64,000 bases of DNA from a virus. The stretch is taken from IMG/VR virus record IMGVR_UViG_3300028840_006010; one strand, given 5' to 3'. Positions 1-63,504 of the stretch are shown in pieces (position 1 is the stretch's first letter; each line of letters begins with the position of its first letter). The position numbers and the translations under genes are program-made. The notes beneath the pieces are model-generated. The model ran no database searches. It was not told where the DNA came from and was given only the letters and a program-made list of their open reading frames with translations.

Positions 1-447
1 TGGCATCATGATACCCGTCAAACGTTTTATTCTTATAGAAATCGTTATTCAAATGACATAGCAGGTGTTGATGCCTGGGTGGAAACGATTCCAGATTTTC
101 ATGGCGGTGGTTACGATGCTGTTGTGTATGATACGGTAAAGGACGATGCAGTGTTAAGCAAACGTTTCGACAATAGAGAAGAAGCGAATGATTGGTTGAT
201 AGCATGGTTAAAAAAGAATATAGAAATAACATCCATCGCAACACATAACGGTAAAATGTTGTATTTAGTAAAAAAATTTGATAAAGTCAAAAAAGGATGG
301 CATAACTTTGAAGTTATACGCAGCTATCATGTTGTGTATTACACGAAAGATAAAATACAGGATACACCTTTTTTCTATAAAGCGGGTGCTAATAGATGGT
401 TAATGAGTTTTTTAGAACGACATCCTGAGTGGAAAATTTTTGAATAA
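1..447 (+). CDS. hypothetical protein, 5'-truncated by the window edge; the frame is open from position 1
   Basis: The ORF 79..447 frame has no stop codon back to nt 1. Ends at TAA 445-447. No recognisable motifs. Confidence 0.5.
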   Translation, partial: WHHDTRQTFYSYRNRYSNDIAGVDAWVETIPDFHGGGYDAVVYDTVKDDAVLSKRFDNREEANDWLIAWLKKNIEITSIATHNGKMLYLVKKFDKVKKGWHNFEVIRSYHVVYYTKDKIQDTPFFYKAGANRWLMSFLERHPEWKIFE

Positions 448-460
448 ACCAAAAAAAATT

Positions 461-556
461 GATACGAGACTTTTCAAAAAAAATTAACACGAGACTTTTC
501 AAAAAATTTTAGTGGGTCTTCCAAAAAAAAATAATGTGGGGACTTTTAAAAAAATA
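461..556. repeat. four imperfect direct repeats (iteron-like), ~19 bp each at ~25-bp spacing: ACGAGACTTTTCAAAAAAA x2, GTGGGTCTTCCAAAAAAAA, GTGGGGACTTTTAAAAAAA
   Basis: Read directly: 464-483, 489-506, 512-531, 536-555. Each ends in an A7-9 tract. Lies between the upstream ORF and the serine recombinase gene. Confidence 0.6.
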
Positions 557-574
557 ATTGGATATTTCATAAGT

Positions 575-583
575 TTTATAAAC
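575..583 (+). promoter_or_regulatory. TATA-box-like element (TTTTATAAA) ~20-25 nt upstream of the recombinase ATG, suggesting a leaderless archaeal-type promoter
   Basis: Sequence TTTTATAAA at 575-583 with ATG at 602. Similar TTTATATA motifs precede other genes (e.g. 9289-9296, 6790-6800). Confidence 0.3.
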
Positions 584-601
584 AGTATATACATTTGAAA
601 A

Positions 602-1180
602 ATGATGGTGGATAAGAGGAAAAAAACGGCCATTTATGTCCGTGTTAGTACATTGGACCAACATCCTGAAAATCAATTATTGGAATTAGAAGAATATGTA
701 AATCTACAACCAGATTTGGAGCTATGGGATATATATGAAGATAAAACGAGTGGAGCGAAAGAATCACGACCTGCTCTTAATCGTTTAATGAATGATGCAA
801 GAAAAAGAAAATTTCAACATGTGGTATTCTGGAAGGTGGATAGATTAGGTAGAAATGCTATACATACACAAACGGTTGTTAACGAGTGGAAAAAACTTGG
901 TATAACATTTACTATAACTACTTTGAATATAGATACTAAGACACCTGCTGGTGAATTTATATTTGCGTTATTTGCTCAATTCGCTCAAATGGAAAGAGCT
1001 TTGATTGTAGAACGAGTAAATGCTGGATTGAATAGAGTTAAAAAAAATATTGAAGATAAAGGCTATCACGTTACTGATGAAGGAAAGAAAATTAAAAAAC
1101 TTGGGAGACCAAAAGGTTCGAAGGATAAAAAGAAGAGGAGAAAAAGCGGATATTATCAAAGATGGGCTAAAAACGAGTAA
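602..1180 (+). CDS. small serine recombinase (resolvase/invertase catalytic domain). The C-terminal HTH is replaced by a basic AT-hook-like tail (KKLGRPKGSKDKKKRRK).
   Basis: N-terminal AIYVRVSTLDQ motif (catalytic Ser), VDRLGRN motif, 192 aa. GRP arm present but no helix-turn-helix after it. Confidence 0.85.
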   Translation: MMVDKRKKTAIYVRVSTLDQHPENQLLELEEYVNLQPDLELWDIYEDKTSGAKESRPALNRLMNDARKRKFQHVVFWKVDRLGRNAIHTQTVVNEWKKLGITFTITTLNIDTKTPAGEFIFALFAQFAQMERALIVERVNAGLNRVKKNIEDKGYHVTDEGKKIKKLGRPKGSKDKKKRRKSGYYQRWAKNE

Positions 1181-1273
1181 ATAATAGACCCCCGTCAGAA
1201 TTGATGTTTTTTTATGATAGCGGACTTGGTTGTAAAAAAACACATATTTATTTACAGGTTTGAGGAAATAAGG

Positions 1274-1396
1274 ATGACTCGTGAAAATGCGGTGATTTAT
1301 GTTAGGGTCTCAACTTCTGAGCAAAAAGCTGAATCTCAAATAAAACCATGTAAAAGTGAAAAGGTGAGGAAAGATGCGAGTACCATTATCCGTTGA
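1274..1396 (+). pseudogene. remnant second copy of the serine-recombinase N-terminus (40 aa, MTRENAVIYVRVSTSEQ...) overlapping the polymerase start
   Basis: Shares the xAIYVRVST(x)Q motif with 602..1180 but terminates after 40 codons. Own SD GAGGAAATAAGG before ATG 1274. Confidence 0.5.
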
Positions 1397-3575
1397 TTCG
1401 GTGGTTCGGCGTAACAAGGAATATTTCGTTATATGGCATAATGGGAAGAAAAAGGAAATACCTGCTCCTATACAACCATATTTTTACACGAAACAAAAAC
1501 TTGATTTACCAAAGGCAGTTGAAGTCAAAAAAGTAAAAGCGAAAGCATTATCAAATCTACAGGAAACATCGTTTTATAAATATTCATTTCAAAACAGAGG
1601 CGACTTGAAGGAATCACGTGGTGATAAAACATTCGAGGATAACATACCTTACATTATCAGGCATCGTATCGATAATCCTGAATTATGGAGGAAGTTCCCT
1701 CATGATAAACCACTCAAATTTCTATTCCTTGATATTGAACAAAAAACAAAGGAAGGAGAAATGTTTCCTACATATGATGATTTAATCACTGCAATATCAT
1801 TTTGTGGTAATGATAGAAAAATACGTTGTGGTTATCTGAAAAAAGATACCACATCAGATAAAAAACTCCTTGAGAAGTTCATCGAGTGGTGGGAGAACTA
1901 TCAACCTGATGTTATAGTCGTATACAACCAGAACTATGATATACCAACGATTCTTGAACGATGTAAACGTAATCGAATCAATACAGCACGTTTATCGAAA
2001 GACAAATCAAAACCACGTGTTGATAAGAACAGTATCACCATACCTGGTGCAACCATCTATGATGCGTATGATTCAGCAGCTCGTGACCAATCACTATCAG
2101 GTAATGTTATCAATCGAGGTTTGAAGGAAGTATCAAATTGGTTTGGTTTCAAAGAGGAACGTAAACCATTAACAGCAAAAGAAATATCAGATTTAACTGG
2201 TACAAAAGACCTTGTCGAATACAACAAGGACGATGTACGCCGTTTGCTTATTTGTTTCGATGTATACTGGCCTAATATTGAATTCAACGCTGATGATTTA
2301 GGTATTCCACTTAGTGAAGCTGTTGATTTACGTGTTGGCAATCTTGGTTTGATTGTTGTAGGTGATGAATACAGAAAACAAGACATCATCGCCGATGGAA
2401 GCAACAGGCAACGATACCCAGATATATTCAATAAAAAACGTGCCAACTATCAAGGAGCGCTTGTCTATCTTGAAAAGGATGGTCGATATGAACCTGTATT
2501 CAAAGCTGATTTTTCCTCGATGTATCCATCAATCATGTCCGAATTTAATTTTAGTCCTGATACAACAACGTTATTAGCATTTGAACCTCGCGGTGAATTC
2601 AAAATTGAACATGATGAACAGTGGGATATTTATTACATACCTGATGAGATTCTTGATAAAAATGTTGTCATACAAGTATCACATAAGGAAGGATTTGCAT
2701 CACGACTTGTAAAAAAATTCCTTCAAGAACGTTCCCAATACAAAAAGAAATGGAAGGAAACAGGCGACCCGATGTTTCGTGCCTTATCTGATAATCGTAA
2801 GGTGAAGGCTAACGGTGGTGTCTATGGTATACAAGGTAGTTCAACACATGCATTTGGATTCGCTCCTATAGCTATTGCTACAACAGGTATAGGTCGTGAA
2901 TGTGCTCGTTTGCTTATTGATTTACTTGATGAGTTATATCCTAATTCTGTACTTGAGGTTGATACTGATGGTGTATACTTCCATACATCAAAAGAATCAT
3001 TTAATAAAAAAGAATTATTCGATACATTCGAGCAACGCATTGTTGATAAGTTTGGCAAAAAATTAGGATTGTCAATTGATGTAGATGAATACGATAAAGG
3101 ATATTTCTACAAAACGAAAAACTACGTTCTTCAAAAAGGAGAAAAACTCATTTATCACGGCGTTGCTATGAAGGCGAGTAACAAGGACCGATTGAATCGT
3201 GAATTGATTCATGACCTTGCTGTTGCAAAATTAAACAAACAATCAACGAAGGAGATTGTCGAAAAATATAACAAGTTGGACTTCCCTCTTAATTACTTCG
3301 CTAAAAATGTCCGACTTGGTAGAAGGCTTAATCAATACACAAATGAAAATGCACTTGCTCCTCGAATGGCGCGACTTGCTGAAGAGTATTTGAATATCAA
3401 ACCGCAAATAGGAAATCAATATTATTATGTAAAAACACTCACGGGATATGAACTGTTTGAACTAGCAAAATTACATGATATAGACCGTGATTATTACTTA
3501 GACGAAATAAAAACCACCTTCGAGATGTTTGGTGTTAAAAAGGAAGCACCATCATTATCGAAATGGGGTATTTGA
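1374..3575 (+). CDS. family B DNA polymerase with 3'-5' exonuclease domain (733 aa; small, virus/plasmid-type, possibly protein-primed)
   Basis: Exo I FLDIE, Exo II YNQNYDIP, Exo III YNKDDVRRL. Motif A DFSSMYPS, motif B KVKANGGVYG, KxY KNY, motif C VLEVDTDGVYF. Confidence 0.9.
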   Translation: MRVPLSVDSVVRRNKEYFVIWHNGKKKEIPAPIQPYFYTKQKLDLPKAVEVKKVKAKALSNLQETSFYKYSFQNRGDLKESRGDKTFEDNIPYIIRHRIDNPELWRKFPHDKPLKFLFLDIEQKTKEGEMFPTYDDLITAISFCGNDRKIRCGYLKKDTTSDKKLLEKFIEWWENYQPDVIVVYNQNYDIPTILERCKRNRINTARLSKDKSKPRVDKNSITIPGATIYDAYDSAARDQSLSGNVINRGLKEVSNWFGFKEERKPLTAKEISDLTGTKDLVEYNKDDVRRLLICFDVYWPNIEFNADDLGIPLSEAVDLRVGNLGLIVVGDEYRKQDIIADGSNRQRYPDIFNKKRANYQGALVYLEKDGRYEPVFKADFSSMYPSIMSEFNFSPDTTTLLAFEPRGEFKIEHDEQWDIYYIPDEILDKNVVIQVSHKEGFASRLVKKFLQERSQYKKKWKETGDPMFRALSDNRKVKANGGVYGIQGSSTHAFGFAPIAIATTGIGRECARLLIDLLDELYPNSVLEVDTDGVYFHTSKESFNKKELFDTFEQRIVDKFGKKLGLSIDVDEYDKGYFYKTKNYVLQKGEKLIYHGVAMKASNKDRLNRELIHDLAVAKLNKQSTKEIVEKYNKLDFPLNYFAKNVRLGRRLNQYTNENALAPRMARLAEEYLNIKPQIGNQYYYVKTLTGYELFELAKLHDIDRDYYLDEIKTTFEMFGVKKEAPSLSKWGI

Positions 3576-3979
3576 AAGGAGAAAATGAAATGACAGATGT
3601 ATATAAACCAAAAGTTCTAACACAAAAAGAATTAGATGAAGGACTCAAGGACCTATTCAAGAAACAAAAGGATGGAGGACCTCAAAAATTTTCACTTACA
3701 CCTAAACCACTACGAGAACAAACAAAAAAATCACCAACGTCAATGCATAAACCAATGTACAATCCAAAACCCTTTTCATTGAAACCAACACCGTTACGTG
3801 AATTAACGAAACCGATGGAACCCGAACCCAAAGAAGAGGAAGAGGAACAGCCATATTGGTCCGCTCATGAATGGGAACAATACTTTTTGGATATGTATCA
3901 TCAATATCCAGATGTACGCCAATATTTACCTGAATGGTTTGTTGATGCTATCGAGGAAGATGAAGGAAACAATCAATGA
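3563..3979 (+). CDS. hypothetical Pro/Lys/Glu-rich protein with internal repeat (FSLTPKPLREQTK / FSLKPTPLRELTK)
   Basis: ORF overlapping the polB stop and the ATPase start; low-complexity. Confidence 0.45.
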   Translation: MGYLKGENEMTDVYKPKVLTQKELDEGLKDLFKKQKDGGPQKFSLTPKPLREQTKKSPTSMHKPMYNPKPFSLKPTPLRELTKPMEPEPKEEEEEQPYWSAHEWEQYFLDMYHQYPDVRQYLPEWFVDAIEEDEGNNQ

Positions 3980-4964
3980 TTTCGTTGGTAAAAATAATTT
4001 CAATACTGTTAACACACTAGCGAAATGGATAGAGAATTATTACTTTCAACATGACATCGTAAGTCAAAACTACGCAATATTAGTTGGTGCTTCAGGTAAC
4101 GGCAAATCATACCTATGTAAATTGTTAGCTGATACGTTCAATGTTGAATTGTTCCGTATCACACCAAATGATATTACATCAATGCAGGATATGTATGATA
4201 TTATCAAATCGATAAATATCAAAACACTCGATAGCAAAGCACATAAAATCATACTCGTGGATGATTTTGATGACTACTCAAAAACGTATAGGAAAGGATT
4301 ACTCGAGATAGGACAAATATCTCGATATCCTGTTATTTATGCTATGAAGCGCTATCCATCTGGTATGAAGGACTTTATCGAAAATTCTTTGAAGCGCAAT
4401 AAAAAATTATTGTATGTAAAAAAGCCGTTAACCTCAGACTTAATGAAAAAATTTAACGGTAAAATAGATAACGATAAACTGCAAGACCTTATCGAGAAAT
4501 CTGTTAGTTATCGTGGTGTAGAATTAGGATTAAAATCAGGTGCAAATGAACTGATTGAATCCGATGAAAATGTTTTCCAATACTTCGATTCCATCAAGAA
4601 TCGAAACATGAAACAACCAGTCACTAGAAAGAATATCAAACTAATATTTGATTCTCTTAGTGGTAGTAAAGGCACTGGCAAATCGATATTGATGGTACGT
4701 CAAGCGTTGAATGATTATTGTTATCGTACTCATGTTCAATACGAGGAAATCGAACCTTTTGAATTGAATAATGCTGATATTCCTATCGAGAGGATGTCGT
4801 TTAAGCCCGTCTTTAAAAAACGTAATGGTAATAATAAAAAACATAATAAACAAAAAACATCATCACGTAAAAAAAGAGTACCGACTATTGAAAAAACGAA
4901 AGTTGAAGATGTTAAAACTGAAACGAAACCAAAACCGAAATCATCACTCAATAAATGGTTCTGA
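3960..4964 (+). CDS. P-loop NTPase, SF3 (D5/P4-type) helicase-like ATPase. Start placed at MKETINDF rather than the longer ORF-track start 3867.
   Basis: Walker A VGASGNGKSYL (the GxGxNGKS pattern typical of SF3 helicases), Walker B IILVDDFDD. The ORF-track N-terminal extension overlaps the upstream gene and looks non-protein-like. Confidence 0.6.
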   Translation: MKETINDFVGKNNFNTVNTLAKWIENYYFQHDIVSQNYAILVGASGNGKSYLCKLLADTFNVELFRITPNDITSMQDMYDIIKSINIKTLDSKAHKIILVDDFDDYSKTYRKGLLEIGQISRYPVIYAMKRYPSGMKDFIENSLKRNKKLLYVKKPLTSDLMKKFNGKIDNDKLQDLIEKSVSYRGVELGLKSGANELIESDENVFQYFDSIKNRNMKQPVTRKNIKLIFDSLSGSKGTGKSILMVRQALNDYCYRTHVQYEEIEPFELNNADIPIERMSFKPVFKKRNGNNKKHNKQKTSSRKKRVPTIEKTKVEDVKTETKPKPKSSLNKWF

Positions 4965-5333: not shown

Positions 5334-5705
5334 TTATATATTGTTATATTTTTTTTTGAATCTGGATATTGATTTACACCTCTCTTTTTGAAAAATGAAA
5401 AATCAATTTTTGAGTTTTTTTCTTTTTTACTTTGTGCTGGTTCTCACGAAGACGTTATATCAAGTTCAAGAGAAGAGATATAATTTATATTTAGAGAGAG
5501 TGTCTACCGTATATCTGACATCGGACATATATTTGTTTTTCGACAATTACAATGCTGGAGGATTTGACGTTATTCGATGTTACTATAGAACTGAGATAAA
5601 TCTTCAATTTTAGTTATTACGCTATACGATATATGTATATGAAAAAGAAGGGGAGTTCAAAAAAAATTAAATTTATAAAGTTATAACGTTTAATATTAAT
5701 TGTTT

Positions 5706-5832
5706 CTGCTTAACTAAGTAAATGTTGTTAATTTACTACCTTTACTAAGTTAACGTATCTGCTTAACTAAGTAAATGTTGTTAATTTACTACCTTTACTA
5801 AGTTAACGTATCTGCTTAACTAAGTAATGTTA
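5706..5832. repeat. 53-bp tandem direct repeat, 2.4 copies (CTGCTTAACTAAGTAAATGTTGTTAATTTACTACCTTTACTAAGTTAACGTAT). Each unit has an imperfect 12-bp inverted repeat (TAACTAAGTAAA / TTTACTAAGTTA).
   Basis: Copies at 5706-5758 and 5759-5811 are identical; third partial copy 5812-~5832. TATA-like AATTTATAAAG at 5672-5682 lies just upstream. Confidence 0.8.
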
Positions 5833-5862: not shown

Positions 5863-6273
5863 TTAGCTTAACCAATCATCTAAACTAGTACTTTTTTTAG
5901 GTTTATAACTTAAAATAAGGTCTCTTGCTATTAACGTATTCATGTATTTCCAATGTTCCCCATCGTCAGATACCTTTGCAATAACACCCATATCATATAG
6001 TTGTTTGACATCACGTAGGGTTCCTATTTTTTTCAATTCATTAATCGTTCTATGTTTACGCATCAATGCTCGTAATATCTTAATGTTTTCAGGTGTATGT
6101 ACCTTCTTTTCATCAAAACATTTCGGCATGTCTTTTAACATAATAATCAAAATGCTCAATGGGATTATTAAGTTTTTTATAGTAGCAATTCGTTTATATT
6201 TTTTGTTATAAGAGATTTGGGAGTCCATGTAAAATTCCGTTGCAAGGTTAGAAAAATGGTTAACCGGAAACAC
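5863..6273 (-). CDS. hypothetical protein (possible winged-helix DNA-binding protein)
   Basis: 136-aa ORF on the minus strand, divergent from 6346..6759. Basic helical C-terminal half. Confidence 0.4.
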   Translation of the reverse strand: MFPVNHFSNLATEFYMDSQISYNKKYKRIATIKNLIIPLSILIIMLKDMPKCFDEKKVHTPENIKILRALMRKHRTINELKKIGTLRDVKQLYDMGVIAKVSDDGEHWKYMNTLIARDLILSYKPKKSTSLDDWLS

Positions 6274-6345: not shown

Positions 6346-6759
6346 ATGACACGTGTAAATCTAATACCACCTTATCAATTAGCTGACCAACACCTTTTAG
6401 CAGAGAACCATGAAATAAGTGGTATGTTGGGTTTTTATCGAAAAAACATGAACAAACAATACAAGCAAGGACATCACTTAAAACGTGTAGTTCCTTATTT
6501 TCATGATAAACTCTTATACATACAGAAGCGTTTTAATGCAGTACAACATGAAATGCGTGAACGAAATTTTAACGCTAACGTAGTCATCGATTTTGATGTA
6601 TACGACACATCATTGATGAATGATTGGGAACCTACAGAAAAACAAGTACAAGACCTTATAGAACGCATCATATTACGATTGCACGAAAAACCAGATTTTT
6701 ATAGGTATTGTGGGGTTATTCAACCTACTGAGTTCTTTTTACATTTAATGAAACTTTGA
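6346..6759 (+). CDS. hypothetical protein
   Basis: 137-aa ORF. Confidence 0.5.
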   Translation: MTRVNLIPPYQLADQHLLAENHEISGMLGFYRKNMNKQYKQGHHLKRVVPYFHDKLLYIQKRFNAVQHEMRERNFNANVVIDFDVYDTSLMNDWEPTEKQVQDLIERIILRLHEKPDFYRYCGVIQPTEFFLHLMKL

Positions 6760-8986: not shown

Positions 8987-9331
8987 TATAAAAGTGAATG
9001 AAAAAGATGGTGCATAAGCCTAAGAACAATCAAAACGGGTTTTCATGTTTTTTGTGCCTAAAAAACGTGTTTTTTACCTATTATTACACCATTTGGTTGT
9101 TAGGAAACTTGTGTATCATAATGTTGTAATTTGAACCTAAAAACAACTGAGGCAGAACTCGGCAAAGGAAAGAGAGCAAAATAATAACCTGAAAAGCAAG
9201 AAGAATTGGGGGCTTCGGTTGTTAGGACATTCAAATTGCAACATTTTTTCATTTTTTTTTATATATTCTTATTAATTTTATGCAAACATTTATATACTTG
9301 TAAACACATATTTATTATGGTGTAATAATAA

Positions 9332-9529
9332 ATGTCCAAAAATATAACCTGTAAGGACTGCGGTCGTACCGTTGATTTATCGACTGCAAAAAAAGAACGC
9401 TGGTATATCGCTGATAGCGGAAAAATGTGTTTTCATTGCATCAAGATTGAAACACTTGAACAAATGGATGCTGAACGTGAATTTTTAGCTGGTGAGTATA
9501 AACGTCATGCATATCGAGGTGATTGTTAA
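9332..9529 (+). CDS. zinc-ribbon protein (CKDCG...CFHC)
   Basis: Two CxxC pairs; TATA-like TTTATATA at 9289-9296. Confidence 0.55.
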   Translation: MSKNITCKDCGRTVDLSTAKKERWYIADSGKMCFHCIKIETLEQMDAEREFLAGEYKRHAYRGDC

Positions 9530-10284
9530 TGGTAGCTAAAAAATCAGGACATACATTTATTTGGAAGCATAAAGAAAACGGTAAAATTGTTTCCAATATT
9601 CAGATGAACGTTAAATTATCAAAAACTGTTGATTCAGGAAATGGTATTCAAAGTAATCTTATTTGCGATGATTGTGAAACCAAATTATCACAAAAATACA
9701 TTTGTAATGATTGTGGAAAGGAGTATACTATAAGGAGTATCACAAAACGCTTTGACCCAAACAATGAAATTGTATATGAATTTGCACAACGAAAAGCATT
9801 CATGGATACTGAAGTGGAACAAAAAATTGTTGTTGTTGACGAAATATCTGTTGATAATATAATGATGAATTTACCTTTCATTACAAGCTTTGATGAACTA
9901 TACAATAACAACGATGATGCTTCAATTTCAACAATTGTAAAAATTCACTCATGGTTATTGAAACATAAAAAAGCACTTGTTGTTTCTTTCGGTAACCGGC
10001 AAAAGGAACGAGCAGGAATCATCATACCAACAAGCGACCGTTTATTACTTGCAGAAATACGCGATTATCGAAACATACGACACCCAAAACAGGAGGGTAT
10101 TGAACCTATCGAAATCAAGGAAACAAAAACACTTGAAAAAGCATCGAAGGATAATGAACCTGAATTATACGCAAAATTCGTTAACAAAGTCAAAAAAGCA
10201 AAAGGCAAACCACTCGATATCAAAACTAAAGAACAAAAACAAGAAAATGAACTTATTGCACAAACATCATTTTTGGATGAATAA
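9523..10284 (+). CDS. hypothetical protein with internal zinc ribbon (CDDC...CNDCG) and Lys/Glu-rich C-terminus
   Basis: 253-aa ORF overlapping the previous stop. Confidence 0.55.
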   Translation: MLMVAKKSGHTFIWKHKENGKIVSNIQMNVKLSKTVDSGNGIQSNLICDDCETKLSQKYICNDCGKEYTIRSITKRFDPNNEIVYEFAQRKAFMDTEVEQKIVVVDEISVDNIMMNLPFITSFDELYNNNDDASISTIVKIHSWLLKHKKALVVSFGNRQKERAGIIIPTSDRLLLAEIRDYRNIRHPKQEGIEPIEIKETKTLEKASKDNEPELYAKFVNKVKKAKGKPLDIKTKEQKQENELIAQTSFLDE

Positions 10285-11453: not shown

Positions 11454-12233
11454 ATGAGAACAACCGTGATGAAACCTAAAGCAATCGAAACTATCCCAAA
11501 AGGAAATCATATTTACGAGCTGAAATATGACGGCGGAAGTTGTGTCATTGAAGTGAAAAATAACAAAATTGGTATATGGCACAATAACAACGGTACCAAT
11601 CAGATATATAAATATCCTGAACTGGTCGAAGATTTGAAAAATTCCGTCAAGGACGGCACTTACATTGCGGAACTATGCGTTATTACACCACGCTTCAAAG
11701 GGGGAGACTTCTCCCTCTATCTGAAGCGTCAATGTGAGAACCGAATGAAAATCGAGCAACGTTCAAAAAAATATCCTATCACTGCTGTCATTTATGATAT
11801 TGTAAAAAACGATGATGAAGATGTTTCTGATGAAAAATTAATTGAACGTAAAAAAATATTATCAAAAAATATCAATGAAACGGAACACATCAAAATTATT
11901 GAATATCACAAATCACCAAAAAAATTCCTTGATATGAAGGATAAAATTGAAGGTTTCGTTATTAAGAATATTGATTCTATATATAGATTCAATACTCGTA
12001 TTGGTTGGTACAAATATCGATTTAACACCGAAAGTGTTGTCAAATGCATTACCTACGAAGACCATCCTAAAGGAATTGTATTGATTAGTGATACGGAAAG
12101 ACGATTCAATTTACCAGGTCCACGTTCACGTATTGCTCGTTCGGTTATTAATCAAAAAGGATTTATTGAAGCAGAAATATCAGCATACAAAAAACGAAAA
12201 GCTGTCGTTAAACGACTAATATATGAGGATTAA
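11454..12233 (+). CDS. minimal covalent nucleotidyltransferase, ATP-dependent DNA/RNA ligase-like (259 aa)
   Basis: Motif I ELKYDGG (KxDG), motif III-like AELCV, motif IV EGFVIK, Lys-rich motif V region WYKYRF. Confidence 0.5.
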   Translation: MRTTVMKPKAIETIPKGNHIYELKYDGGSCVIEVKNNKIGIWHNNNGTNQIYKYPELVEDLKNSVKDGTYIAELCVITPRFKGGDFSLYLKRQCENRMKIEQRSKKYPITAVIYDIVKNDDEDVSDEKLIERKKILSKNINETEHIKIIEYHKSPKKFLDMKDKIEGFVIKNIDSIYRFNTRIGWYKYRFNTESVVKCITYEDHPKGIVLISDTERRFNLPGPRSRIARSVINQKGFIEAEISAYKKRKAVVKRLIYED

Positions 12234-14111: not shown

Positions 14112-14504
14112 ATGAAAATAGGGATAGTTGGAAATCGAGAAGGCTGGATTTACTGGCAAGTACAAGATACACTTAAAGAACTCGGTTTATATAAATCAGA
14201 TGTTATCGTTTCAGGAGGGGCTAAAGGAATTGATATAATGGCTCAATGGATAGCGAAAGAAATAGGTGCTCAACTTATCATTTTTTATCCTGACCCAAAA
14301 AAACCTTCACCACAACGATATTTTGATAGAAACAAACGTATTGTTTTGGAATCAGATATTGTTGTTGCTTTTGATAGAAAAGAACATTCAGGAACGTTAA
14401 ACACAATCAATTATGCTAAAGAAATCAAAAAGCCTTTGATTATAGTAAGAGGATTAAATCAACATCCTGAATATCATAATTATGAAGGTTTGCTAAATGA
14501 GTAA
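14112..14504 (+). CDS. SLOG/DprA-LOG-like Rossmann-fold protein
   Basis: Motif VSGGAKGIDIMAQWIA (SGGAxGxD), as in DprA/Smf and YpsA-type proteins. Confidence 0.4.
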   Translation: MKIGIVGNREGWIYWQVQDTLKELGLYKSDVIVSGGAKGIDIMAQWIAKEIGAQLIIFYPDPKKPSPQRYFDRNKRIVLESDIVVAFDRKEHSGTLNTINYAKEIKKPLIIVRGLNQHPEYHNYEGLLNE

Positions 14505-14784
14505 ACATGAATTTGATAATTTGAAAGAAATTGACAAACAAATTAGTAAATATTATAAGTTACCAATGTTAGCTATAACGATACAAATAATCATTACCTT
14601 TACGTTTTTGGCACTTCAATTTGCAGATATATTTGAACCAATCATCACAGTATATATTATCTTTGCTATGTTATTCTTAGTATTATCAACTAATTATTAC
14701 TGTTATAAAAAACGAAAAATTTTACTTGAAAGAAGGTTTGAAATATGCAAGCATTTAAATGCGATTTATGTAAAAAATATATAG
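14497..14784 (+). CDS. small membrane protein
   Basis: 95 aa, two TM helices. Confidence 0.4.
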   Translation: MSKHEFDNLKEIDKQISKYYKLPMLAITIQIIITFTFLALQFADIFEPIITVYIIFAMLFLVLSTNYYCYKKRKILLERRFEICKHLNAIYVKNI

Positions 14785-14918
14785 ATGGAACACATCCATA
14801 CCAAATTTATATTGAAAATAGGCTTGTTGACCCACGAGATGGAGAAACAAGATATTCTATGTGGCTGTGTGAAGAATGTGGTAGTAAATTATGGAACGAA
14901 GCAAAAAACAAATCATAA
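14745..14918 (+). CDS. 57-aa zinc-ribbon protein (CDLC...CEECG), below the ORF-track cutoff
   Basis: ATG 14745 to TAA 14916-14918, read directly. Confidence 0.4.
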   Translation: MQAFKCDLCKKYIDGTHPYQIYIENRLVDPRDGETRYSMWLCEECGSKLWNEAKNKS

Positions 14919-15074
14919 AAAGAATGTTTATGGCATGTTTCTTATCATCTATCGTTGCCATTTTCATTATATACATATGTTCTACACATAATATTAATGC
15001 CAGCATCACGCTTGTTACTTGTTTGTTTACAGGACTTATTATAGGATATTTAACAGCAGAATTTTATTATAGGT

Positions 15075-15395
15075 TTGACAAAAAGAAGGAAAAAAATGAA
15101 AACAAATTGTTTTGATTGTGCTATGTTTGCTGATGCTTTACATACTTATTACAATTCCCTTACTGATGTAACCAAAGATACTCCAATCGAATATCTTGAT
15201 AAAATGAAACAACATTTCGACAATCTATGTTGGCGACAACTTCATTTTGTTGCTTGTAAATTAGCTTTAAGGAAATATCATCCTACTATAGCTCCTCTAC
15301 TTGACAACCCGCCAATTTACGCAGAAAATTTAACTTTAGAACAATTACAAGACATCATAAACAATATTAAAGAAAAATTAGGTGCGGAAAAGTGA
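15075..15395 (+). CDS. hypothetical protein
   Basis: 106-aa ORF. Confidence 0.45.
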   Translation: MTKRRKKMKTNCFDCAMFADALHTYYNSLTDVTKDTPIEYLDKMKQHFDNLCWRQLHFVACKLALRKYHPTIAPLLDNPPIYAENLTLEQLQDIINNIKEKLGAEK

Positions 15396-15655
15396 CAGAT
15401 AAAATAAAAAAAGCAATTGAAGAAAAGTATGGAAAAGTTAAAGGAACAAAAGAGGTGGTTATTGATAACAATTTTTTAGTTATCAGTGTAATGACCGAGC
15501 ATTTCATACATCCAGATAAAGAAACAATAGATAACATCAAAACCATAAAACTCAAAGAATTAATCAAACAATTACAAAAATTAGAAAAAGAACATGGAAA
15601 TGTTGATATTTTTAGTAACTGGTACTCAGTTAGGTATTTTGTCAGCAATAGATGA
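15392..15655 (+). CDS. hypothetical protein
   Basis: 87 aa, 4-nt overlap. Confidence 0.45.
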   Translation: MTDKIKKAIEEKYGKVKGTKEVVIDNNFLVISVMTEHFIHPDKETIDNIKTIKLKELIKQLQKLEKEHGNVDIFSNWYSVRYFVSNR

Positions 15656-16004
15656 TAAATGTGTACGAAACAAAACTATTCAAAACATAATTGATAAACA
15701 ATATATTCGAGCATCATCTACAAGCATCATGGATGATATAAAAGAACTAACTCAACCAAAACACACAAAACCGTTGAAGCATCAAAAAATAGAATTTATA
15801 TCAACGACTTATCCAGAAATTGATATTAATAATTTCTGTACATGTCGTGAACCTACGAAAAGGGAAATCTGTGTTGCTCTAAAAATTATTGCAACTATTC
15901 CAAAAGATGAATTCGGTGATTTCGCACAGATGCTCGTTAATGCTGAAAAATTCGAAGGCACAGACATTCCAATAAAAATAACATTAGAATCCTTGAGGGA
16001 GTAA
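15594..16004 (+). CDS. hypothetical protein
   Basis: 136-aa ORF. Confidence 0.45.
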   Translation: MEMLIFLVTGTQLGILSAIDDKCVRNKTIQNIIDKQYIRASSTSIMDDIKELTQPKHTKPLKHQKIEFISTTYPEIDINNFCTCREPTKREICVALKIIATIPKDEFGDFAQMLVNAEKFEGTDIPIKITLESLRE

Positions 16005-35390: not shown

Positions 35391-35780
35391 TATCATCTCT
35401 AAATAATCTAGAGGATTCAAAACTTATATAAACCACCGGCAACATAATTATTGTTAGGTTAGGTGGTTCAAACGCGAGAGAGATTATTACTACTTTTTAG
35501 GTGTAAAAAAGTATTTTTTAAGGAGGGATAATTATTTACCAAACATACTTTGTTGTAAAAATAAAAAAGCCTTTTGGTGATGGTACAGTAAAATTTGTGA
35601 GGGGTAAACGTTACTGGGAACCTGAATACTTAGAAGGTTTGAAATTCAAATTTCCTTTAATCAAAAGAGATTTTTCAAAAGACCAGGTTATAGATTTTCT
35701 ACGTAAAAAATGGGATTTTTGGTATAATGATATTGAAATGTTAGAATCAGATGATTATGGAATATTTGGAGGACTCTAAT

Positions 35781-36422
35781 ATGAAAAACAAAAAGAAATA
35801 TATGGCATTGTCGATGATAATGTGCATTACGCTGATAGTAGTTGCTCCACATTCATTGGGAGATGAACCTGTATCAGGCACATTCACTCCAAAAGCAGAA
35901 GCTACTATCTTCGGTGTATATCCTGCAAATACATCAACATCTATTGATAGACCGGCAACTAATATGAGTTCCTATATCAATTCATCGGTGACGTTTGATG
36001 TTTATTTCTATTTGTATAACGAAACTGGTCTGTCACCAACATGGACGCTCATATACAATTGGTCTAACGAAACATCACAACGCTTCAGCGTACCACGTAC
36101 TTATCTTGATGTATTTGGTTTGGGCACGGAATTTATTTGGGGTAACAACACATACACATGGAGAATCATGACTCGGGTATGTGCTACCTGGCAAAATTTT
36201 ACATACACCTATACAACAAATGCTACCACCGTTATTATGGACAAAAACGCAAGAATGGATGTGAACAACAACGGATACATTAATGTGTTTGATACGGCAG
36301 ATGATTGGGCACATCATACGTTCGGCGGATATGCAGAATATAATAGAATATATGATGTAAATAATGACAACAAGGTTGATTCACTTGATTTGTCGGCAAT
36401 CTGGGGTCAAAAAACAATTTAG
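35781..36422 (+). CDS. secreted protein with C-terminal type-I dockerin domain. Paralogous to the C-terminal ~170 aa of the giant adhesin.
   Basis: Signal peptide. Dockerin Ca-binding loops DVNNNGYINVFD and DVNNDNKVDSLD followed by a helix. Shares the FYLYNETGLSPTWTL...WGNNTYTW block with 53060-53556. Confidence 0.7.
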   Translation: MKNKKKYMALSMIMCITLIVVAPHSLGDEPVSGTFTPKAEATIFGVYPANTSTSIDRPATNMSSYINSSVTFDVYFYLYNETGLSPTWTLIYNWSNETSQRFSVPRTYLDVFGLGTEFIWGNNTYTWRIMTRVCATWQNFTYTYTTNATTVIMDKNARMDVNNNGYINVFDTADDWAHHTFGGYAEYNRIYDVNNDNKVDSLDLSAIWGQKTI

Positions 36423-62976: not shown

Positions 62977-63062
62977 ATTTTCATCACCATCCTGTTTATT
63001 TGAAAAATAGTATATTAAGTTAATTTAAGTATTTTTCGAAAACTTGAATTCCCATCTCTTTT

Positions 63063-63176
63063 CCGGGCACTTTATTACTCTGTAATAAAGTGAAAAAGTG
63101 AAGAGTTTAAATCTTTTTTCCGGGCACTTTATTACTCTGTAATAAAGTGAAAAAGTGAAGAGTTTAAATCTCTTTT
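63063..63176. repeat. two tandem 57-bp repeats, each containing an 11-bp perfect inverted repeat CACTTTATTAC-TCT-GTAATAAAGTG (63068-63092 and 63125-63149); operator-like
   Basis: Read directly. Located in the divergent intergenic region between 62976(-) and 63505(+). Confidence 0.8.
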
Positions 63177-63504
63177 TTATGTACAACGTAAAAAATGAAA
63201 AAATTAAAAATTATGTTATACAAGCGTATTATAATCTATTATTTTTGTATTATTTCTCGATAGAAAAGCGTATTTTTTAGAAAATTAATTTGAGTGAACG
63301 GTTTTTTAGAAAAAAAAAGTCGCCTTCGAGAAAAAATGTGATACGGATTGCAAATCCCTTAGACTAACTAGAAACAACTATAGTATTTTTATGCGATTGG
63401 ATATCTATTAGTCCCAATCGCAAAAATACAATATTTGTTTTCAAAAGTTAAGGACTAACAAAATATTTAAACCCGCCCCGCCTTAATAATTATGAGGAAA
63501 GACG

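What the first reader, a model, noticed from the sequence alone, without database searches (positions are those of the whole stretch)
602..4964. Replication/recombination core: small serine recombinase + family-B DNA polymerase + SF3-like helicase ATPase
A catalytic-domain-only serine recombinase sits immediately 5' of a compact (733 aa) exonuclease-proficient PolB and a D5/P4-type (GxGxNGKS) ATPase, with iterons upstream. Self-synthesising elements described so far pair a PolB with Cas1 (casposons), rve integrase (polintons) or tyrosine recombinase (pipolins). A serine-recombinase/PolB/SF3 combination would be a different architecture for an integrative or linear-plasmid/viral replicon.
Basis: partly seen in the sequence, partly recalled or inferred. 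Interest (0 to 1): 0.65.

Follow-up and report, generated by a model that had tools for sequence, protein, structure and literature searches.

The report
Archaeal mobile-element replication module with recombinase
This stretch is the start of the DNA-replication gene block of a large, uncultivated archaeal virus- or plasmid-like element: an ordinary primer-dependent archaeal-type DNA polymerase, a clamp-loader-like ATPase (not a helicase), and in front of them a frequently replaced site-specific recombinase, so it is not a new kind of self-copying transposon.

Summary

**Polymerase.** ORF 1374-3575 is a complete family-B polymerase with all exonuclease and polymerase motifs. It is collinear with Pyrococcus/Thermococcus PolB, so it is the primer-extending archaeal type, not the protein-primed type.

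**ATPase.** The gene really starts at 3960 (334 aa). Its best matches are replication factor C large subunit and phage clamp loaders, not SF3/D5 helicases.

**Shared tail.** Both proteins end in a PCNA-binding-like motif (SLSKWGI, SLNKWF). It is conserved in 26 of 28 polymerases and 13 of 14 ATPases of the family.

**Recombinase.** ORF 602-1180 is a catalytically complete serine recombinase with no helix-turn-helix. It carries a conserved AT-hook-like tail, GRPKGSKDK..RRKSGYYxRW. A 40-aa relic of a second recombinase lies at 1274-1396.

**Relatives.** In 14 of 16 related genomes a small recombinase sits just upstream of PolB. Eleven are serine type (at least five lineages) and three are tyrosine type.

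**No element ends.** Homology to the nearest relative runs from PolB more than 14 kb downstream. No terminal repeats or att sites bound the trio.

**Host element.** It is at least 67 kb, has no tRNA, capsid or terminase match, and probably belongs to Thermoplasmatota.

Verdict: moderately interesting new variant; the self-synthesising reading is not supported.

The parts
449..556 (.). Four direct repeats with a ~24-25 nt period. Two near-perfect copies read ..ACGAGACTTTTCAAAAAAA. Two degenerate copies read GTGGGTCTTCCAAAAAAAA and GTGGGGACTTTTAAAAAAA. They lie 45-150 nt upstream of the recombinase start.
   Evidence: The nearest relative L035 has four analogous 'CCCC(G)TCTCT + A/T-run' elements at the same place (8987-9170), although its recombinase is of a different lineage. 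Function unknown: operator, promoter array, origin or accessory site.
575..585 (+). TATA-like box (TTTTATAAAC) about 20 nt before the recombinase ATG, suggesting a short-leader or leaderless archaeal transcript.
   Evidence: Read directly from the sequence. Inference only.
602..1180 (+). Small serine recombinase of 192 aa. It has the catalytic domain (S16, R14, D80-R81, R84), long helix E, a short beta-hairpin and an AT-hook-like basic tail (LGRPKGSKDKKKRRKSGYYQRW). It has no helix-turn-helix.
   Evidence: Pfam Resolvase 5.8e-38. PHROG DNA invertase 4.6e-46. PDB profile search: Gin invertase 1e-32, gamma-delta resolvase 4e-24, with alignments ending at the end of helix E. AlphaFold model pLDDT 85.8: helix 115-153, then a hairpin and an extended tail. 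Foldseek top hits are all serine recombinase catalytic domains. Tail residues G168, R169, P170, G172, D175, R179, G183 and Y184 are invariant in 38 relatives.
1187..1198 (+). C-run motif GACCCCCGTCAG, 7 nt after the recombinase stop codon. A '(A/G)TA(N)ACCCC' motif follows the stop of 6 of 9 genes of this recombinase subfamily, in unrelated contexts.
   Evidence: In the 13 loci compared, 6 of 8 such genes carry CCCC within 20 nt of the stop. Only 1 of 256 other + strand ORFs of at least 80 aa does (binomial P about 1e-8). Nucleotide homology is otherwise confined to the ORF. Role unknown.
1274..1396 (+). 40-aa relic of the N-terminus of a second serine recombinase (MTRENAVIYVRVSTSEQKAESQIKPC...). 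It has its own Shine-Dalgarno sequence and a TATA-like upstream sequence, and it overlaps the PolB start by 23 nt.
   Evidence: Pfam Resolvase positions 1-27, E 0.0026. Best matches are the full-length HTH-bearing recombinases directly upstream of PolB in L026 and L024. Called as a 40-aa gene in four assemblies.
1374..3575 (+). Family-B DNA polymerase of 733 aa, of the archaeal primer-extending type. It has an intact 3'-5' exonuclease and a C-terminal PIP-like motif (SLSKWGI).
3563..3979 (+). Conserved 138-aa acidic protein of unknown function. Its reading frame overlaps both PolB (13 nt) and the ATPase (20 nt), which suggests translational coupling.
   Evidence: No Pfam, PHROG or NCBIfam match. 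Homologues sit between PolB and the ATPase in L005, L024, L025, L027, L031, L034, L035 and L039, and follow PolB in L040.
3960..4964 (+). AAA+ ATPase of 334 aa, RFC-large-subunit-like. Features: N-terminal DFVG box, Walker A GASGNGKS, Walker B ILVDDFDD, an SxSxR sensor-2-like motif, a lysine-rich linker and a C-terminal PIP-like motif SLNKWF.
   Evidence: NCBIfam RFC large subunit 2.5e-12, residues 5-181 to model positions 16-197, below the curated cutoff. PHROG clamp loader 1.7e-12. In the PDB profile search the longest alignment is to yeast RFC1, 248 positions, 3.6e-6, and no SF3 helicase is among the 60 best. Motifs. C-terminal motif in 13 of 14 homologues. It is the only Walker-A protein in the 64 kb.
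5705..5831 (.). 53-nt tandem repeat, 2.4 copies at 98% identity. Each unit holds a 13-nt inverted repeat. It lies next to the divergent gene 5863-6273(-). It is a candidate operator or origin, and a better iteron candidate than 449-556.
   Evidence: Copy number differs between assemblies of the same genome, and two assemblies break there. The relative L184 has an unrelated 22/44-nt tandem repeat at the syntenic position.
5863..6273 (-). Small protein (the gene call is 92 aa, 5863-6141) that looks like a winged-helix protein. Its C-terminus SLDDWLS is a third PIP-like tail.
   Evidence: Conserved in L035/L184. No family match. The winged-helix assignment is by eye only.

Best explanation
Window 449-4964 is the head of the DNA-replication module of a large (at least 67 kb) uncultivated archaeal virus- or plasmid-like element, probably of sediment Thermoplasmatota.

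**Replication genes.** An operon encodes three overlapping genes: a proofreading, primer-extending archaeal-type PolB; a conserved 138-aa protein; and an RFC-large-subunit-like AAA+ ATPase. PolB and the ATPase, and also the small divergent protein at 5863-6273, end in the same kind of PCNA-interacting tail. The inferred mechanism has three steps:
1. The element brings its own polymerase and a clamp-loader subunit.
2. These dock onto the host sliding clamp.
3. The host supplies the helicase and primase, because the window has no other P-loop protein.

**Recombinase slot.** In front of the operon is a slot that, across the family, always holds a small site-specific recombinase, but of interchangeable kind. 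Here it holds an HTH-less serine recombinase with an AT-hook-like tail, followed by the 40-aa stump of the previous occupant. The stump keeps the promoter-like sequence and ribosome-binding site and probably now serves as the leader of the PolB operon.

**Role of the recombinase.** The most likely job is conservative site-specific recombination for the replicon itself. I favour resolution of replication multimers of a circular form (about 0.45). Integration/excision comes second (about 0.25). It does not act as the transposase of a PolB-driven self-synthesising element.

**Shown:** gene identities, motifs, synteny and turnover. **Inferred:** PCNA binding, hybrid clamp loading, and the recombinase's role and site.
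For: - **PolB type:** profile aligns end to end with Pfu/KOD/Tgo/9N PolB (E 2e-44 to 1e-35). Weaker hits are to Pol alpha and delta catalytic cores. No phi29-type entry is among the best 60. All exonuclease and polymerase motifs are invariant. In the nearest relative an intein sits at the DTD motif.
- **ATPase type:** RFC large subunit and clamp loader are the best family hits. The longest PDB alignment is to RFC1.
- **C-terminal [LIV]xx[WF]-hydrophobic tail:** present in 26 of 28 PolBs and 13 of 14 ATPases. In this window only 5 of 177 ORFs of at least 60 aa have a strict L/I/V/M-x-x-W tail, and three of them are PolB, the ATPase and orf 5863-6273.
- **Operon structure:** overlapping stop and start codons, with the same gene order in relatives.
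- **Recombinase slot:** 11 serine and 3 tyrosine recombinases in 16 genomes. Serine recombinases in the slot are only 13-43% identical between lineages, while the adjacent PolBs are 50-80% identical. The relic matches the L026/L024 lineage.
- **Recombinase competence:** catalytic residues are conserved, the model is confident, and the fold matches serine recombinases. In small serine recombinases the linker after helix E is an AT-hook that docks in the minor groove (PMC9943657).
- **Mobile-element context:** no tRNA or Rfam hit in 64 kb. Nearly all genes are on one strand. Ku, ATP-dependent ligase, a DprA-like protein and an endonuclease-V-like glycosylase are present. Most ORFs have no family match.
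Against: - No sliding clamp, RFC small subunit, primase or helicase was found in the window. Relatives L005 and L187 do encode an RFC-small-like gene. The replisome model therefore rests on host factors that I cannot see.
- The RFC assignment is below NCBIfam's curated cutoffs. The AlphaFold model of the ATPase was too poor to use (pLDDT 52).
- PCNA binding of the tails is inferred from sequence only.
- Genome topology is unknown, and multimer resolution presupposes a circular form.
- No recombination site was identified. The upstream repeats resemble those of L035, which has a different recombinase, so they are probably not recombinase-specific.
- An HTH-less recombinase may need a partner for site choice.
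- Two family members (L033, L105) have no recombinase in the sequence available upstream of PolB (10 kb, of which 4 kb was screened, for L033; 1.6 kb for L105).
Confidence: 0.7

Rival explanations
1. The recombinase is the element's integrase. It inserts the whole element into the host chromosome and excises it (lysogeny or plasmid integration). The PolB-proximal slot is where integrase modules are exchanged, as in temperate phages.
For: - The slot holds either serine or tyrosine recombinases of the Phage_integrase family, as integration modules do.
- It sits at a mosaic junction. The sequence upstream of it is unrelated between the window and its nearest relative, while the downstream sequence is collinear.
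- The C-run motif that travels with the gene could be an attachment core.
Against: - No integrated copy was seen. The closest PolB-bearing contigs in 185,579 species genomes are short MAG contigs of 30 kb and 5 kb.
- The 10 kb upstream of the recombinase in the relative on a 232-kb contig still looks like mobile-element DNA: a methyltransferase, a Cas4-like nuclease, the same strand and the same GC.
- There is no tRNA gene or tRNA fragment in the window.
- The tyrosine recombinases are only about 205 aa (catalytic domain only), and this serine recombinase has no sequence-reading domain.
Confidence: 0.22
2. The recombinase gene is a selfish mini-cassette (gene plus adjacent site) that inserts itself near essential replication genes, much as homing endonuclease genes and inteins do. 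It contributes nothing to the replicon.
For: - Turnover is high: at least five serine lineages plus tyrosine types, and one relic, in a single slot.
- The same subfamily occurs in unrelated contexts without PolB (L189, L191, L193, L195).
- A short C-run motif follows the stop codon in 6 of 9 cases.
- PolB genes of this family also collect inteins, and a GIY-YIG-like ORF (recognised by eye, not searched) lies in the slot of L024.
Against: - There is no conserved flanking sequence or terminal repeat beyond the ORF.
- No empty-site/filled-site pair was found. The one apparent case (L004) was a truncated contig.
- Occupancy of 14 of 16 genomes by an intact gene is more typical of a needed function.
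- No serine recombinase is known to me to mobilise only itself without a DNA-binding domain (from memory).
Confidence: 0.15
3. One reading: a self-synthesising mobile element in which a serine recombinase replaces Cas1, rve or tyrosine integrase. A protein-primed PolB and an SF3 helicase would replicate a unit bounded by terminal inverted repeats.
For: - A recombinase gene is adjacent to PolB, and the adjacency recurs in relatives.
- There is a marginal Pfam RNA_helicase (SF3) hit on the ATPase (E 1.5e-4).
- A weak inverted repeat flanks the block (454-480 against 5385-5411, 78% complementary, low complexity).
Against: - The PolB is collinear with primer-dependent archaeal PolB and has an N-terminal domain.
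- The ATPase is RFC-like.
- Homology with the relative continues more than 14 kb past the ATPase, so there is no right-hand end.
- The flanking inverted repeat ranks ninth of 143 in 6.5 kb of A/T-rich DNA.
- The recombinase is interchangeable with tyrosine recombinases.
- The host element is at least 67 kb, and relatives lie on contigs of 60-230 kb.
Confidence: 0.03

Closest known systems
Archaeal replicative family-B polymerases (Pyrococcus/Thermococcus PolB: Pfu, KOD, Tgo, 9N)
   Same: - Same domain order (N-terminal domain, exonuclease, palm/fingers/thumb) over the whole length.
- All exonuclease and polymerase motifs are present.
- The extreme C-terminal tail is of the form hydrophobic-x-x-aromatic. 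The archaeal PolB PIP box is recalled from memory.
- Inteins are inserted at the DTD motif in relatives.
   Different: - Matches no NCBIfam cellular PolB model above its cutoff; the best is 76 bits against a cutoff of 780.
- Forms its own clade of more than 100 metagenomic clusters on contigs that look like mobile elements.
- The nearest genome-bin sequences are only 42-45% identical.
Replication modules of archaeal tailed viruses (magroviruses / Magrovirales and some haloviruses)
   Same: A virus-borne archaeal-type PolB together with other replication and repair genes. Magrovirales are described as rich in genome replication and repair genes and are classified partly by polB (PMC11706807).
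   Different: - No HK97 capsid, portal or terminase match, and no second P-loop ATPase, in 64 kb.
- PolB is only 23-31% identical to IMG/VR viral contigs and 23-24% to cyanophage gp43.
- A recombinase slot heads the module, whereas those viruses are reported to lack integrases.
Self-synthesising transposons (casposons, polintons, pipolins)
   Same: A PolB gene next to a recombinase or integrase gene.
   Different: From memory, those are 8-40 kb units bounded by terminal inverted repeats and target-site duplications. Most have a protein-primed PolB, paired with Cas1, an rve integrase or a tyrosine recombinase. Here the PolB is primer-dependent, no ends exist around the trio, and the recombinase is interchangeable.
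Small serine recombinases (Gin/Hin invertases, Tn3/gamma-delta/Sin resolvases)
   Same: - Catalytic domain, helix E and the GRP 'AT-hook' linker (PMC9943657).
- Size of about 190 aa.
   Different: [quoted passage not shown]
- It is replaced by a conserved GRPKGSKDK-x2-RRKSGYYxRW tail, preceded in many members by a ~14-residue hairpin insert.
- The subfamily is abundant: 1,153 clusters at E <= 1e-10. All of the best 120 carry the Resolvase domain only. The few named ones come from Thermoplasmatales.
Replication factor C large subunit (archaeal RFC-L, eukaryotic RFC1)
   Same: N-terminal box, Walker A and B, a sensor-2-like arginine, and a basic linker with a C-terminal PIP-like motif.
   Different: - Shorter (about 305-335 aa against 400-500 aa).
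- No Rep_fac_C collar domain was detected.
- Scores are far below the family cutoffs.
- Whether it loads a clamp is untested.

Membership tests
Protein-primed family-B polymerases (phi29, adenovirus, pipolin type) | The exonuclease domain starts at the N-terminus, with no separate N-terminal domain. | tested here: not met
   Exo I (D120/E122) is preceded by about 110 residues. These align with the N-terminal domain of Pfu-type PolB (profile positions 5-693 to chain residues 3-708).
Protein-primed family-B polymerases (phi29, adenovirus, pipolin type) | TPR1 and TPR2 insertions. | tested here: inconclusive
   The alignment with Pfu PolB is end to end in a single stretch. The spacing from motif B to motif C is about 50 residues (K476 to D530), which is like Pfu by my memory of the reference spacings. 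No direct alignment to a phi29-type sequence could be made.
Protein-primed family-B polymerases (phi29, adenovirus, pipolin type) | A terminal-protein gene and terminal inverted repeats of the replicon. | not testable with these tools
   The genome ends are not in hand. No inverted repeat was found between the 3.5 kb upstream of the window and the window's last 6 kb.
Primer-extending archaeal-type family-B polymerases | Exo I-III, polymerase motifs A-C and the KxY motif, all intact. | tested here: met
   D120, E122, N185, Y188, D189, Y283, D287, D379, Y384, K476, N480, G485, D530-T531-D532 and K582-N583-Y584 are invariant in 28 sequences.
Primer-extending archaeal-type family-B polymerases | C-terminal clamp-binding (PIP) motif. 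| tested here: inconclusive
   A motif-like tail is present in 26 of 28 sequences. Binding was not tested.
SF3 helicases (D5 / P4 alpha / E1 / large T antigen type) | Best profile similarity to SF3 families, with Walker A, B, B' and motif C and without an AAA+ lid and sensor-2 arginine. | tested here: not met
   Pfam RNA_helicase scores only 22.6 bits (E 1.5e-4), against AAA at 36 bits. RFC-L scores 2.5e-12 and phage clamp loader 1.7e-12. No SF3 structure is among the 60 best PDB hits. S181, S183 and R185 are conserved in the predicted lid.
SF3 helicases (D5 / P4 alpha / E1 / large T antigen type) | An associated primase or origin-binding domain (D5_N, primase-polymerase). | tested here: not met
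   No such domain is found in the 334-aa protein or its neighbours.
Clamp-loader AAA+ (RFC large subunit) | RFC boxes: N-terminal box II, Walker A and B, and a sensor-2 arginine. | tested here: met
   DFVG, GASGNGKS, ILVDDFDD and SxSVR are conserved. The alignment to the RFC-L model runs from residue 5 to 181.
Clamp-loader AAA+ (RFC large subunit) | A score above the curated family threshold, and a C-terminal collar domain. | tested here: not met
   46 bits against a cutoff of 280. No Rep_fac_C hit. I therefore call it RFC-L-like, not a member.
Clamp-loader AAA+ (RFC large subunit) | Loads PCNA together with small subunits. | not testable with these tools
   No RFC-small-subunit homologue was found in the window by tblastn, and no clamp-family (PCNA) match was found among the larger ORFs scanned with Pfam. 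Relatives L005 and L187 encode an RFC-small-like protein.
Small serine recombinases (resolvase/invertase) | Catalytic serine, conserved arginines and helix E. | tested here: met
   Y12, R14, S16, R56, D80, R81 and R84 are invariant or nearly invariant. The model has a helix at 115-153.
Small serine recombinases (resolvase/invertase) | C-terminal helix-turn-helix DNA-binding domain. | tested here: not met
   Only 22 residues follow the GRP motif. The model shows no three-helix bundle. Alignments to Gin and gamma-delta resolvase stop at residue ~133 of 183-193.
Self-synthesising transposons (casposon, polinton, pipolin) | A discrete unit bounded by terminal inverted repeats and target-site duplication. 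| tested here: not met
   Collinear homology with L184 runs from PolB to beyond window position 15,800. There is only one weak low-complexity inverted repeat around the block.
Tailed archaeal viruses (Caudoviricetes, e.g. Magrovirales) | HK97-fold capsid protein, portal and large terminase. | tested here: not met
   None of the larger ORFs scanned with Pfam, PHROGs or NCBIfam gave a capsid, portal or terminase match. There is no second Walker-A protein. About 3.6 kb of the contig lies outside the window, and very divergent capsid proteins cannot be excluded.

The most novel reading that the evidence does not exclude
The window belongs to an undescribed family of large (about 60 to more than 230 kb) archaeal mobile elements with no recognisable capsid, packaging or conjugation genes. 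In this reading:
- The replication module docks onto the host sliding clamp through a shared C-terminal tail on PolB, on an RFC-L-like ATPase and on a small DNA-binding protein.
- The module is always headed by a hot-swappable site-specific recombinase slot.
- The current occupant represents an unstudied, abundant subfamily of serine recombinases. These have replaced the helix-turn-helix by an AT-hook-like GRPKGSKDK..SGYYxRW tail. They carry a short C-run motif just after their stop codon that may be their recombination site.
Probability: 0.3. Interest if true: 0.55.

Novelty: new variant of a known kind. Interest (0 to 1): 0.35.

Why it matters
- **It removes a false lead.** This is not a fourth class of PolB-driven self-synthesising transposon.
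- **Recombinase specificity.** The window points to an abundant archaeal subfamily of serine recombinases that lack the site-reading domain. That raises a concrete question: how does such an enzyme choose its site?
- **Replication strategy.** It points to a family of large sediment-archaeal elements that appear to replicate by plugging their own polymerase and clamp-loader subunit into the host clamp.

Both of these points can be tested with a few recombinant proteins and the source metagenome reads.

Tried and rejected
1. **Apparent presence/absence polymorphism of the recombinase.** Locus L004 seemed to lack it, but the contig simply starts inside the gene. Rejected.
2. **Structure of the ATPase.** The AlphaFold model from six sequences reached only pLDDT 52, too poor for a fold search. 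I relied on profile searches instead.
3. **ATPase as a single sequence against the PDB.** Only generic AAA hits appeared. A 14-sequence profile was needed.
4. **IMG/VR scans.**
   - The single PolB sequence found nothing.
   - The PolB profile found only distant viral polymerases of 23-31% identity.
   - The recombinase profile returned mostly bacterial prophage invertases. Only one member of the HTH-less subfamily came back.
5. **The upstream repeat core in relatives.** Absent at up to 2 mismatches. It is not enriched in the window overall.
6. **Terminal repeats or circular overlap.** Nothing was found between the 3.5 kb upstream of the window and the window's end. The 67.6-kb contig itself could not be retrieved.
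7. **Search for an integrated copy.**
   - The 232-kb contig of the nearest relative shows element-like genes, not obvious host genes, upstream of its recombinase.
   - The genome collection gave only short MAG contigs.
8. **Search for virion or other replication genes.**
   - No Pfam, PHROG or NCBIfam match for capsid, terminase, portal, primase or helicase among the larger ORFs tested (most ORFs of at least 110 aa).
   - tblastn with RFC-small and Cas4-like proteins of relatives against the window found nothing.
   - tblastn of the 816-aa ORF against phage genomes found nothing.
9. **Literature.** No paper was found that describes this element family or HTH-less serine recombinases.

Full report
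**What is in the sequence.** The window is A/T-rich (about 33% G+C), and almost all ORFs of at least 110 aa lie on the + strand. Between 449 and 4964 I find, in order:
- Four direct repeats with a 24-25 nt period at 449-556.
- A 192-aa serine recombinase at 602-1180 (Pfam Resolvase, E 5.8e-38).
- A 40-aa ORF at 1274-1396 that is the N-terminal stump of a second serine recombinase (Pfam Resolvase positions 1-27).
- A 733-aa family-B polymerase at 1374-3575.
- A 138-aa ORF at 3563-3979.
- A P-loop ATPase.

The same genome was assembled independently in several samples at 99.98-100% identity over the shared stretches. The gene calls there agree, including the 40-aa ORF and a 334-aa ATPase starting at window 3960 rather than 3867. 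The PolB, orf138 and ATPase reading frames overlap by 13 and 20 nt, as in a translationally coupled operon.

**The polymerase.**
- A profile of 28 family members aligns in one piece with Pyrococcus/Thermococcus PolB (positions 5-693 to residues 3-708, E 2e-44). It aligns more weakly with the catalytic cores of Pol alpha and Pol delta. No phi29-type polymerase is among the 60 best hits.
- Exo I-III and polymerase motifs A, B, C and KxY are invariant, so 'exonuclease-proficient' is right.
- About 110 residues precede Exo I, and these match the N-terminal domain of the archaeal enzymes. The motif B to motif C spacing is about 50 residues. By my memory of the reference enzymes, that leaves no room for a TPR2 insertion.
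- The protein reaches no NCBIfam cellular PolB threshold. It belongs to a clade of more than 100 clusters, 41-80% identical, known only from metagenomes on contigs up to 232 kb.
- Several members carry inteins. In the nearest relative the intein sits exactly at the DTD motif.
- In species-representative genomes the closest sequences are on short contigs binned as Thermoplasmatota (45% and 42% identity). One cluster was binned as Heimdallarchaeaceae and one as Atribacterota.
- Conclusion: this is a primer-extending archaeal-type polymerase carried by a mobile element, not a protein-primed one.

**The ATPase.**
- Its best family matches are replication factor C large subunit (NCBIfam, E 2.5e-12, residues 5-181 to model positions 16-197, far below the curated cutoff) and phage clamp loaders (PHROG, 1.7e-12).
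- The SF3-type Pfam RNA_helicase hit is marginal (22.6 bits).
- A 14-sequence profile against the PDB gives short generic AAA+ hits. Its longest alignment, 248 positions, is to yeast RFC1 (3.6e-6). No SF3 helicase is among the best 60.
- Conserved features are an N-terminal DFVG box, Walker A GxSGNGK[ST], Walker B DD, an SxSxR motif in the predicted lid, a lysine-rich linker and a conserved extreme C-terminus.
- The AlphaFold model was too poor to use.
- I therefore call it RFC-L-like, not a proven RFC member.

**A shared C-terminal tail.**
- PolB ends in SLSKWGI, the ATPase in SLNKWF, and the small divergent protein at 5863-6273(-) in SLDDWLS.
- Only 5 of 177 ORFs of at least 60 aa in the window have such a tail, and these three are among them.
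- Across the family, 26 of 28 PolBs and 13 of 14 ATPases end in [LIV]-x-x-[WF]-hydrophobic.
- From memory, archaeal PolB and RFC-L bind PCNA through C-terminal motifs of exactly this form.
- The ATPase is the only Walker-A protein in the 64 kb. No clamp, primase, helicase or RFC small subunit was found. Relatives L005 and L187 do encode an RFC-small-like protein.
- Inferred mechanism: the element supplies the polymerase and one clamp-loader subunit, both dock on the host clamp, and the host provides unwinding and priming.

**The recombinase.**
- Its catalytic residues are intact. Its profile matches Gin invertase (1e-32), the TP901-1 integrase catalytic domain and gamma-delta/Tn3 resolvases. 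These alignments stop at the end of helix E.
- A confident model (pLDDT 85.8) shows the catalytic domain, a helix at 115-153, a short hairpin and an extended tail. There is no helix-turn-helix. Foldseek returns only serine recombinases.
- The tail LGRPKGSKDK-x2-RRKSGYYxRW is the most conserved part of the protein outside the active site.
- In classical resolvases the GRP linker is a short AT-hook in the minor groove (PMC9943657). Here that element is extended and the site-reading domain is gone.
- The subfamily is large: 1,153 clusters at E <= 1e-10. The best 120 all carry the Resolvase domain only and are 129-242 aa long. The few named members come from Thermoplasmatales genomes.
- It is not tied to PolB. 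Of nine contexts examined, four are next to a PolB of this family (window, L040, L187, L194). Five are not (L189, L191, L193, L195 and the IMG/VR contig L202).

**The recombinase slot.**
- I examined 16 related genomes with at least 0.8 kb of sequence upstream of PolB. Fourteen have a co-oriented small recombinase within about 2.5 kb.
- Eleven are serine recombinases and three are ~205-aa tyrosine recombinases.
- The serine recombinases fall into at least five lineages, 13-43% identical to each other. The adjacent polymerases are 50-80% identical.
- L025 has two recombinases. The window has one plus the 40-aa relic. The relic is closest to the HTH-bearing lineage that sits directly before PolB in L026 and L024.
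- The relic keeps a TATA-like sequence and a Shine-Dalgarno sequence and ends 20 nt inside PolB. I infer that it survives as the leader of the PolB operon.
- Against the nearest relative (L035/L184, PolB 80%), homology begins at PolB. It continues collinearly through orf138, the ATPase, the divergent small gene, Ku and the ligase to beyond 15.8 kb. Everything upstream of PolB is unrelated.
- So the trio is not a cassette, and the recombinase marks a mosaic junction.

**The repeats.**
- The 449-556 repeats are real but local.
- The relative L035 has four analogous C-rich-core-plus-A/T-run elements at the same place, although its recombinase is of another lineage with a different C-terminal domain. 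The repeats therefore more probably belong to the module's control region or origin than to this recombinase.
- A stronger iteron candidate is the 53-nt x 2.4 perfect tandem repeat at 5705-5831. Each unit contains a 13-nt inverted repeat, and the array is variable in copy number. It lies next to the small PIP-tailed protein gene. L184 has a different tandem repeat at the same place.
- Unexplained: a C-run ((A/G)TA(N)ACCCC) lies 3-12 nt after the stop codon of 6 of 9 genes of the HTH-less subfamily. Only 1 of 256 other ORFs in the same loci shows this.

**What the host element is.**
- The 64 kb contain no tRNA and no Rfam family.
- Identifiable genes are Ku, an ATP-dependent ligase, a DprA/SLOG protein, an endonuclease-V-like glycosylase, a metallophosphatase, a C25 peptidase and giant NosD/beta-helix proteins of up to 3,031 aa.
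- No capsid, portal, terminase or conjugation match was found among the larger ORFs scanned.
- Relatives lie on contigs of 56-232 kb.
- I can only call it a large virus- or plasmid-like archaeal element. NosD-like adhesins on sediment viral contigs have been reported (PMC13452462).

**Mechanism and comparison.**
- The best-supported reading is a replication module that hijacks the host clamp, headed by a maintenance or integration recombinase whose identity is freely exchanged.
- Interchangeable serine and tyrosine enzymes at one position beside the replication genes are what plasmid and phage multimer-resolution or integration modules look like (general knowledge). I favour resolution because I found no integrated copy. 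Topology is unknown, so this is inference.
- Compared with casposons, polintons and pipolins, only the bare adjacency of a recombinase and a PolB is shared.
- Compared with magroviruses, the idea of a virus-borne archaeal replisome is shared, but not the structural genes (PMC11706807).

**Verdict.** The 'new self-synthesising architecture' is not supported. What remains is a new variant of a known kind, with two modestly novel side issues: the HTH-less recombinase subfamily and the recombinase slot in an undescribed element family.

Noticed in passing
window 5705-5831 and 5863-6273(-): A perfect 53-nt tandem repeat (2.4 copies, each unit with a 13-nt inverted repeat) lies beside a small, probably winged-helix gene whose product ends in a PIP-like tail (SLDDWLS). 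Copy number differs between assemblies of the same genome, and two assemblies break here. The relative L184 has an unrelated 22/44-nt tandem repeat at the syntenic place (11703-11787). Candidate origin plus origin-binding protein.
   Followed up: partly
window 1187-1198; L187 6567-6576; L189 5745-5752; L040 9510-9520; L191 5560-5570; L194 4318-4326: A C-run motif, (A/G)TA(N)ACCCC, lies 3-12 nt after the stop codon of 6 of 9 HTH-less serine recombinase genes in unrelated contexts. Only 1 of 256 other ORFs in the same loci has it. It may be a recombination core or a regulatory signal that travels with the gene. A GGGG-containing partner lies upstream in three cases.
   Followed up: partly
window 9523-10284, 11454-12233, 14112-14504, 6346-6759: The element encodes Ku (Pfam 27.9 bits), a minimal ATP-dependent DNA ligase, a DprA/SLOG-like protein and a T4 endonuclease-V-like pyrimidine-dimer glycosylase. 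An end-joining pair on a mobile element suggests repair or circularisation of linear DNA ends. From memory, this is known for mycobacteriophages Corndog and Omega.
   Followed up: no
window 14463-15820 vs L184 19512-20987: This 1.3-kb stretch is about 94% identical in all six translated frames to the relative, that is nearly identical DNA. Neighbouring genes are only 50-80% identical at the protein level. This looks like a recent exchange between the two elements.
   Followed up: no
window 38130-58605: A block of surface or adhesin-like genes: a C25 peptidase, a DUF2341 protein, and NosD/right-handed beta-helix proteins of 3,031, 463 and 1,105 aa. A dockerin/EF-hand-like protein lies at 35751-36422.
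   Followed up: no
whole window: Only one protein in the 64 kb has a Walker A motif (the ATPase at 3960-4964). No larger ORF scanned matches a capsid, portal, terminase, primase, helicase or conjugation family. There are no tRNA genes and no Rfam hits.
   Followed up: partly
L001 1760-3979 and window 79-447: At least three tandem paralogues of a ~160-190-aa protein beginning MKIDDYWHK lie immediately upstream of the recombinase. They have no family match apart from a weak hit to a PHROG family of unknown function.
   Followed up: no
L035 11600-12640 (= L184 7958-9000): The PolB of the nearest relative carries a LAGLIDADG intein inserted exactly at the DTD catalytic motif (window nt 2961-2966). 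Several other family members are 1,060-1,115 aa for the same reason.
   Followed up: partly
window 63054-63177: A second long tandem repeat: 57 nt x 2.2 at 97% identity.
   Followed up: no
L032 8248-8868, L036 7079-7702, L039 9127-9735: Tyrosine recombinases of only ~205 aa (catalytic domain only, Pfam Phage_integrase) occupy the slot upstream of PolB in three relatives.
   Followed up: partly
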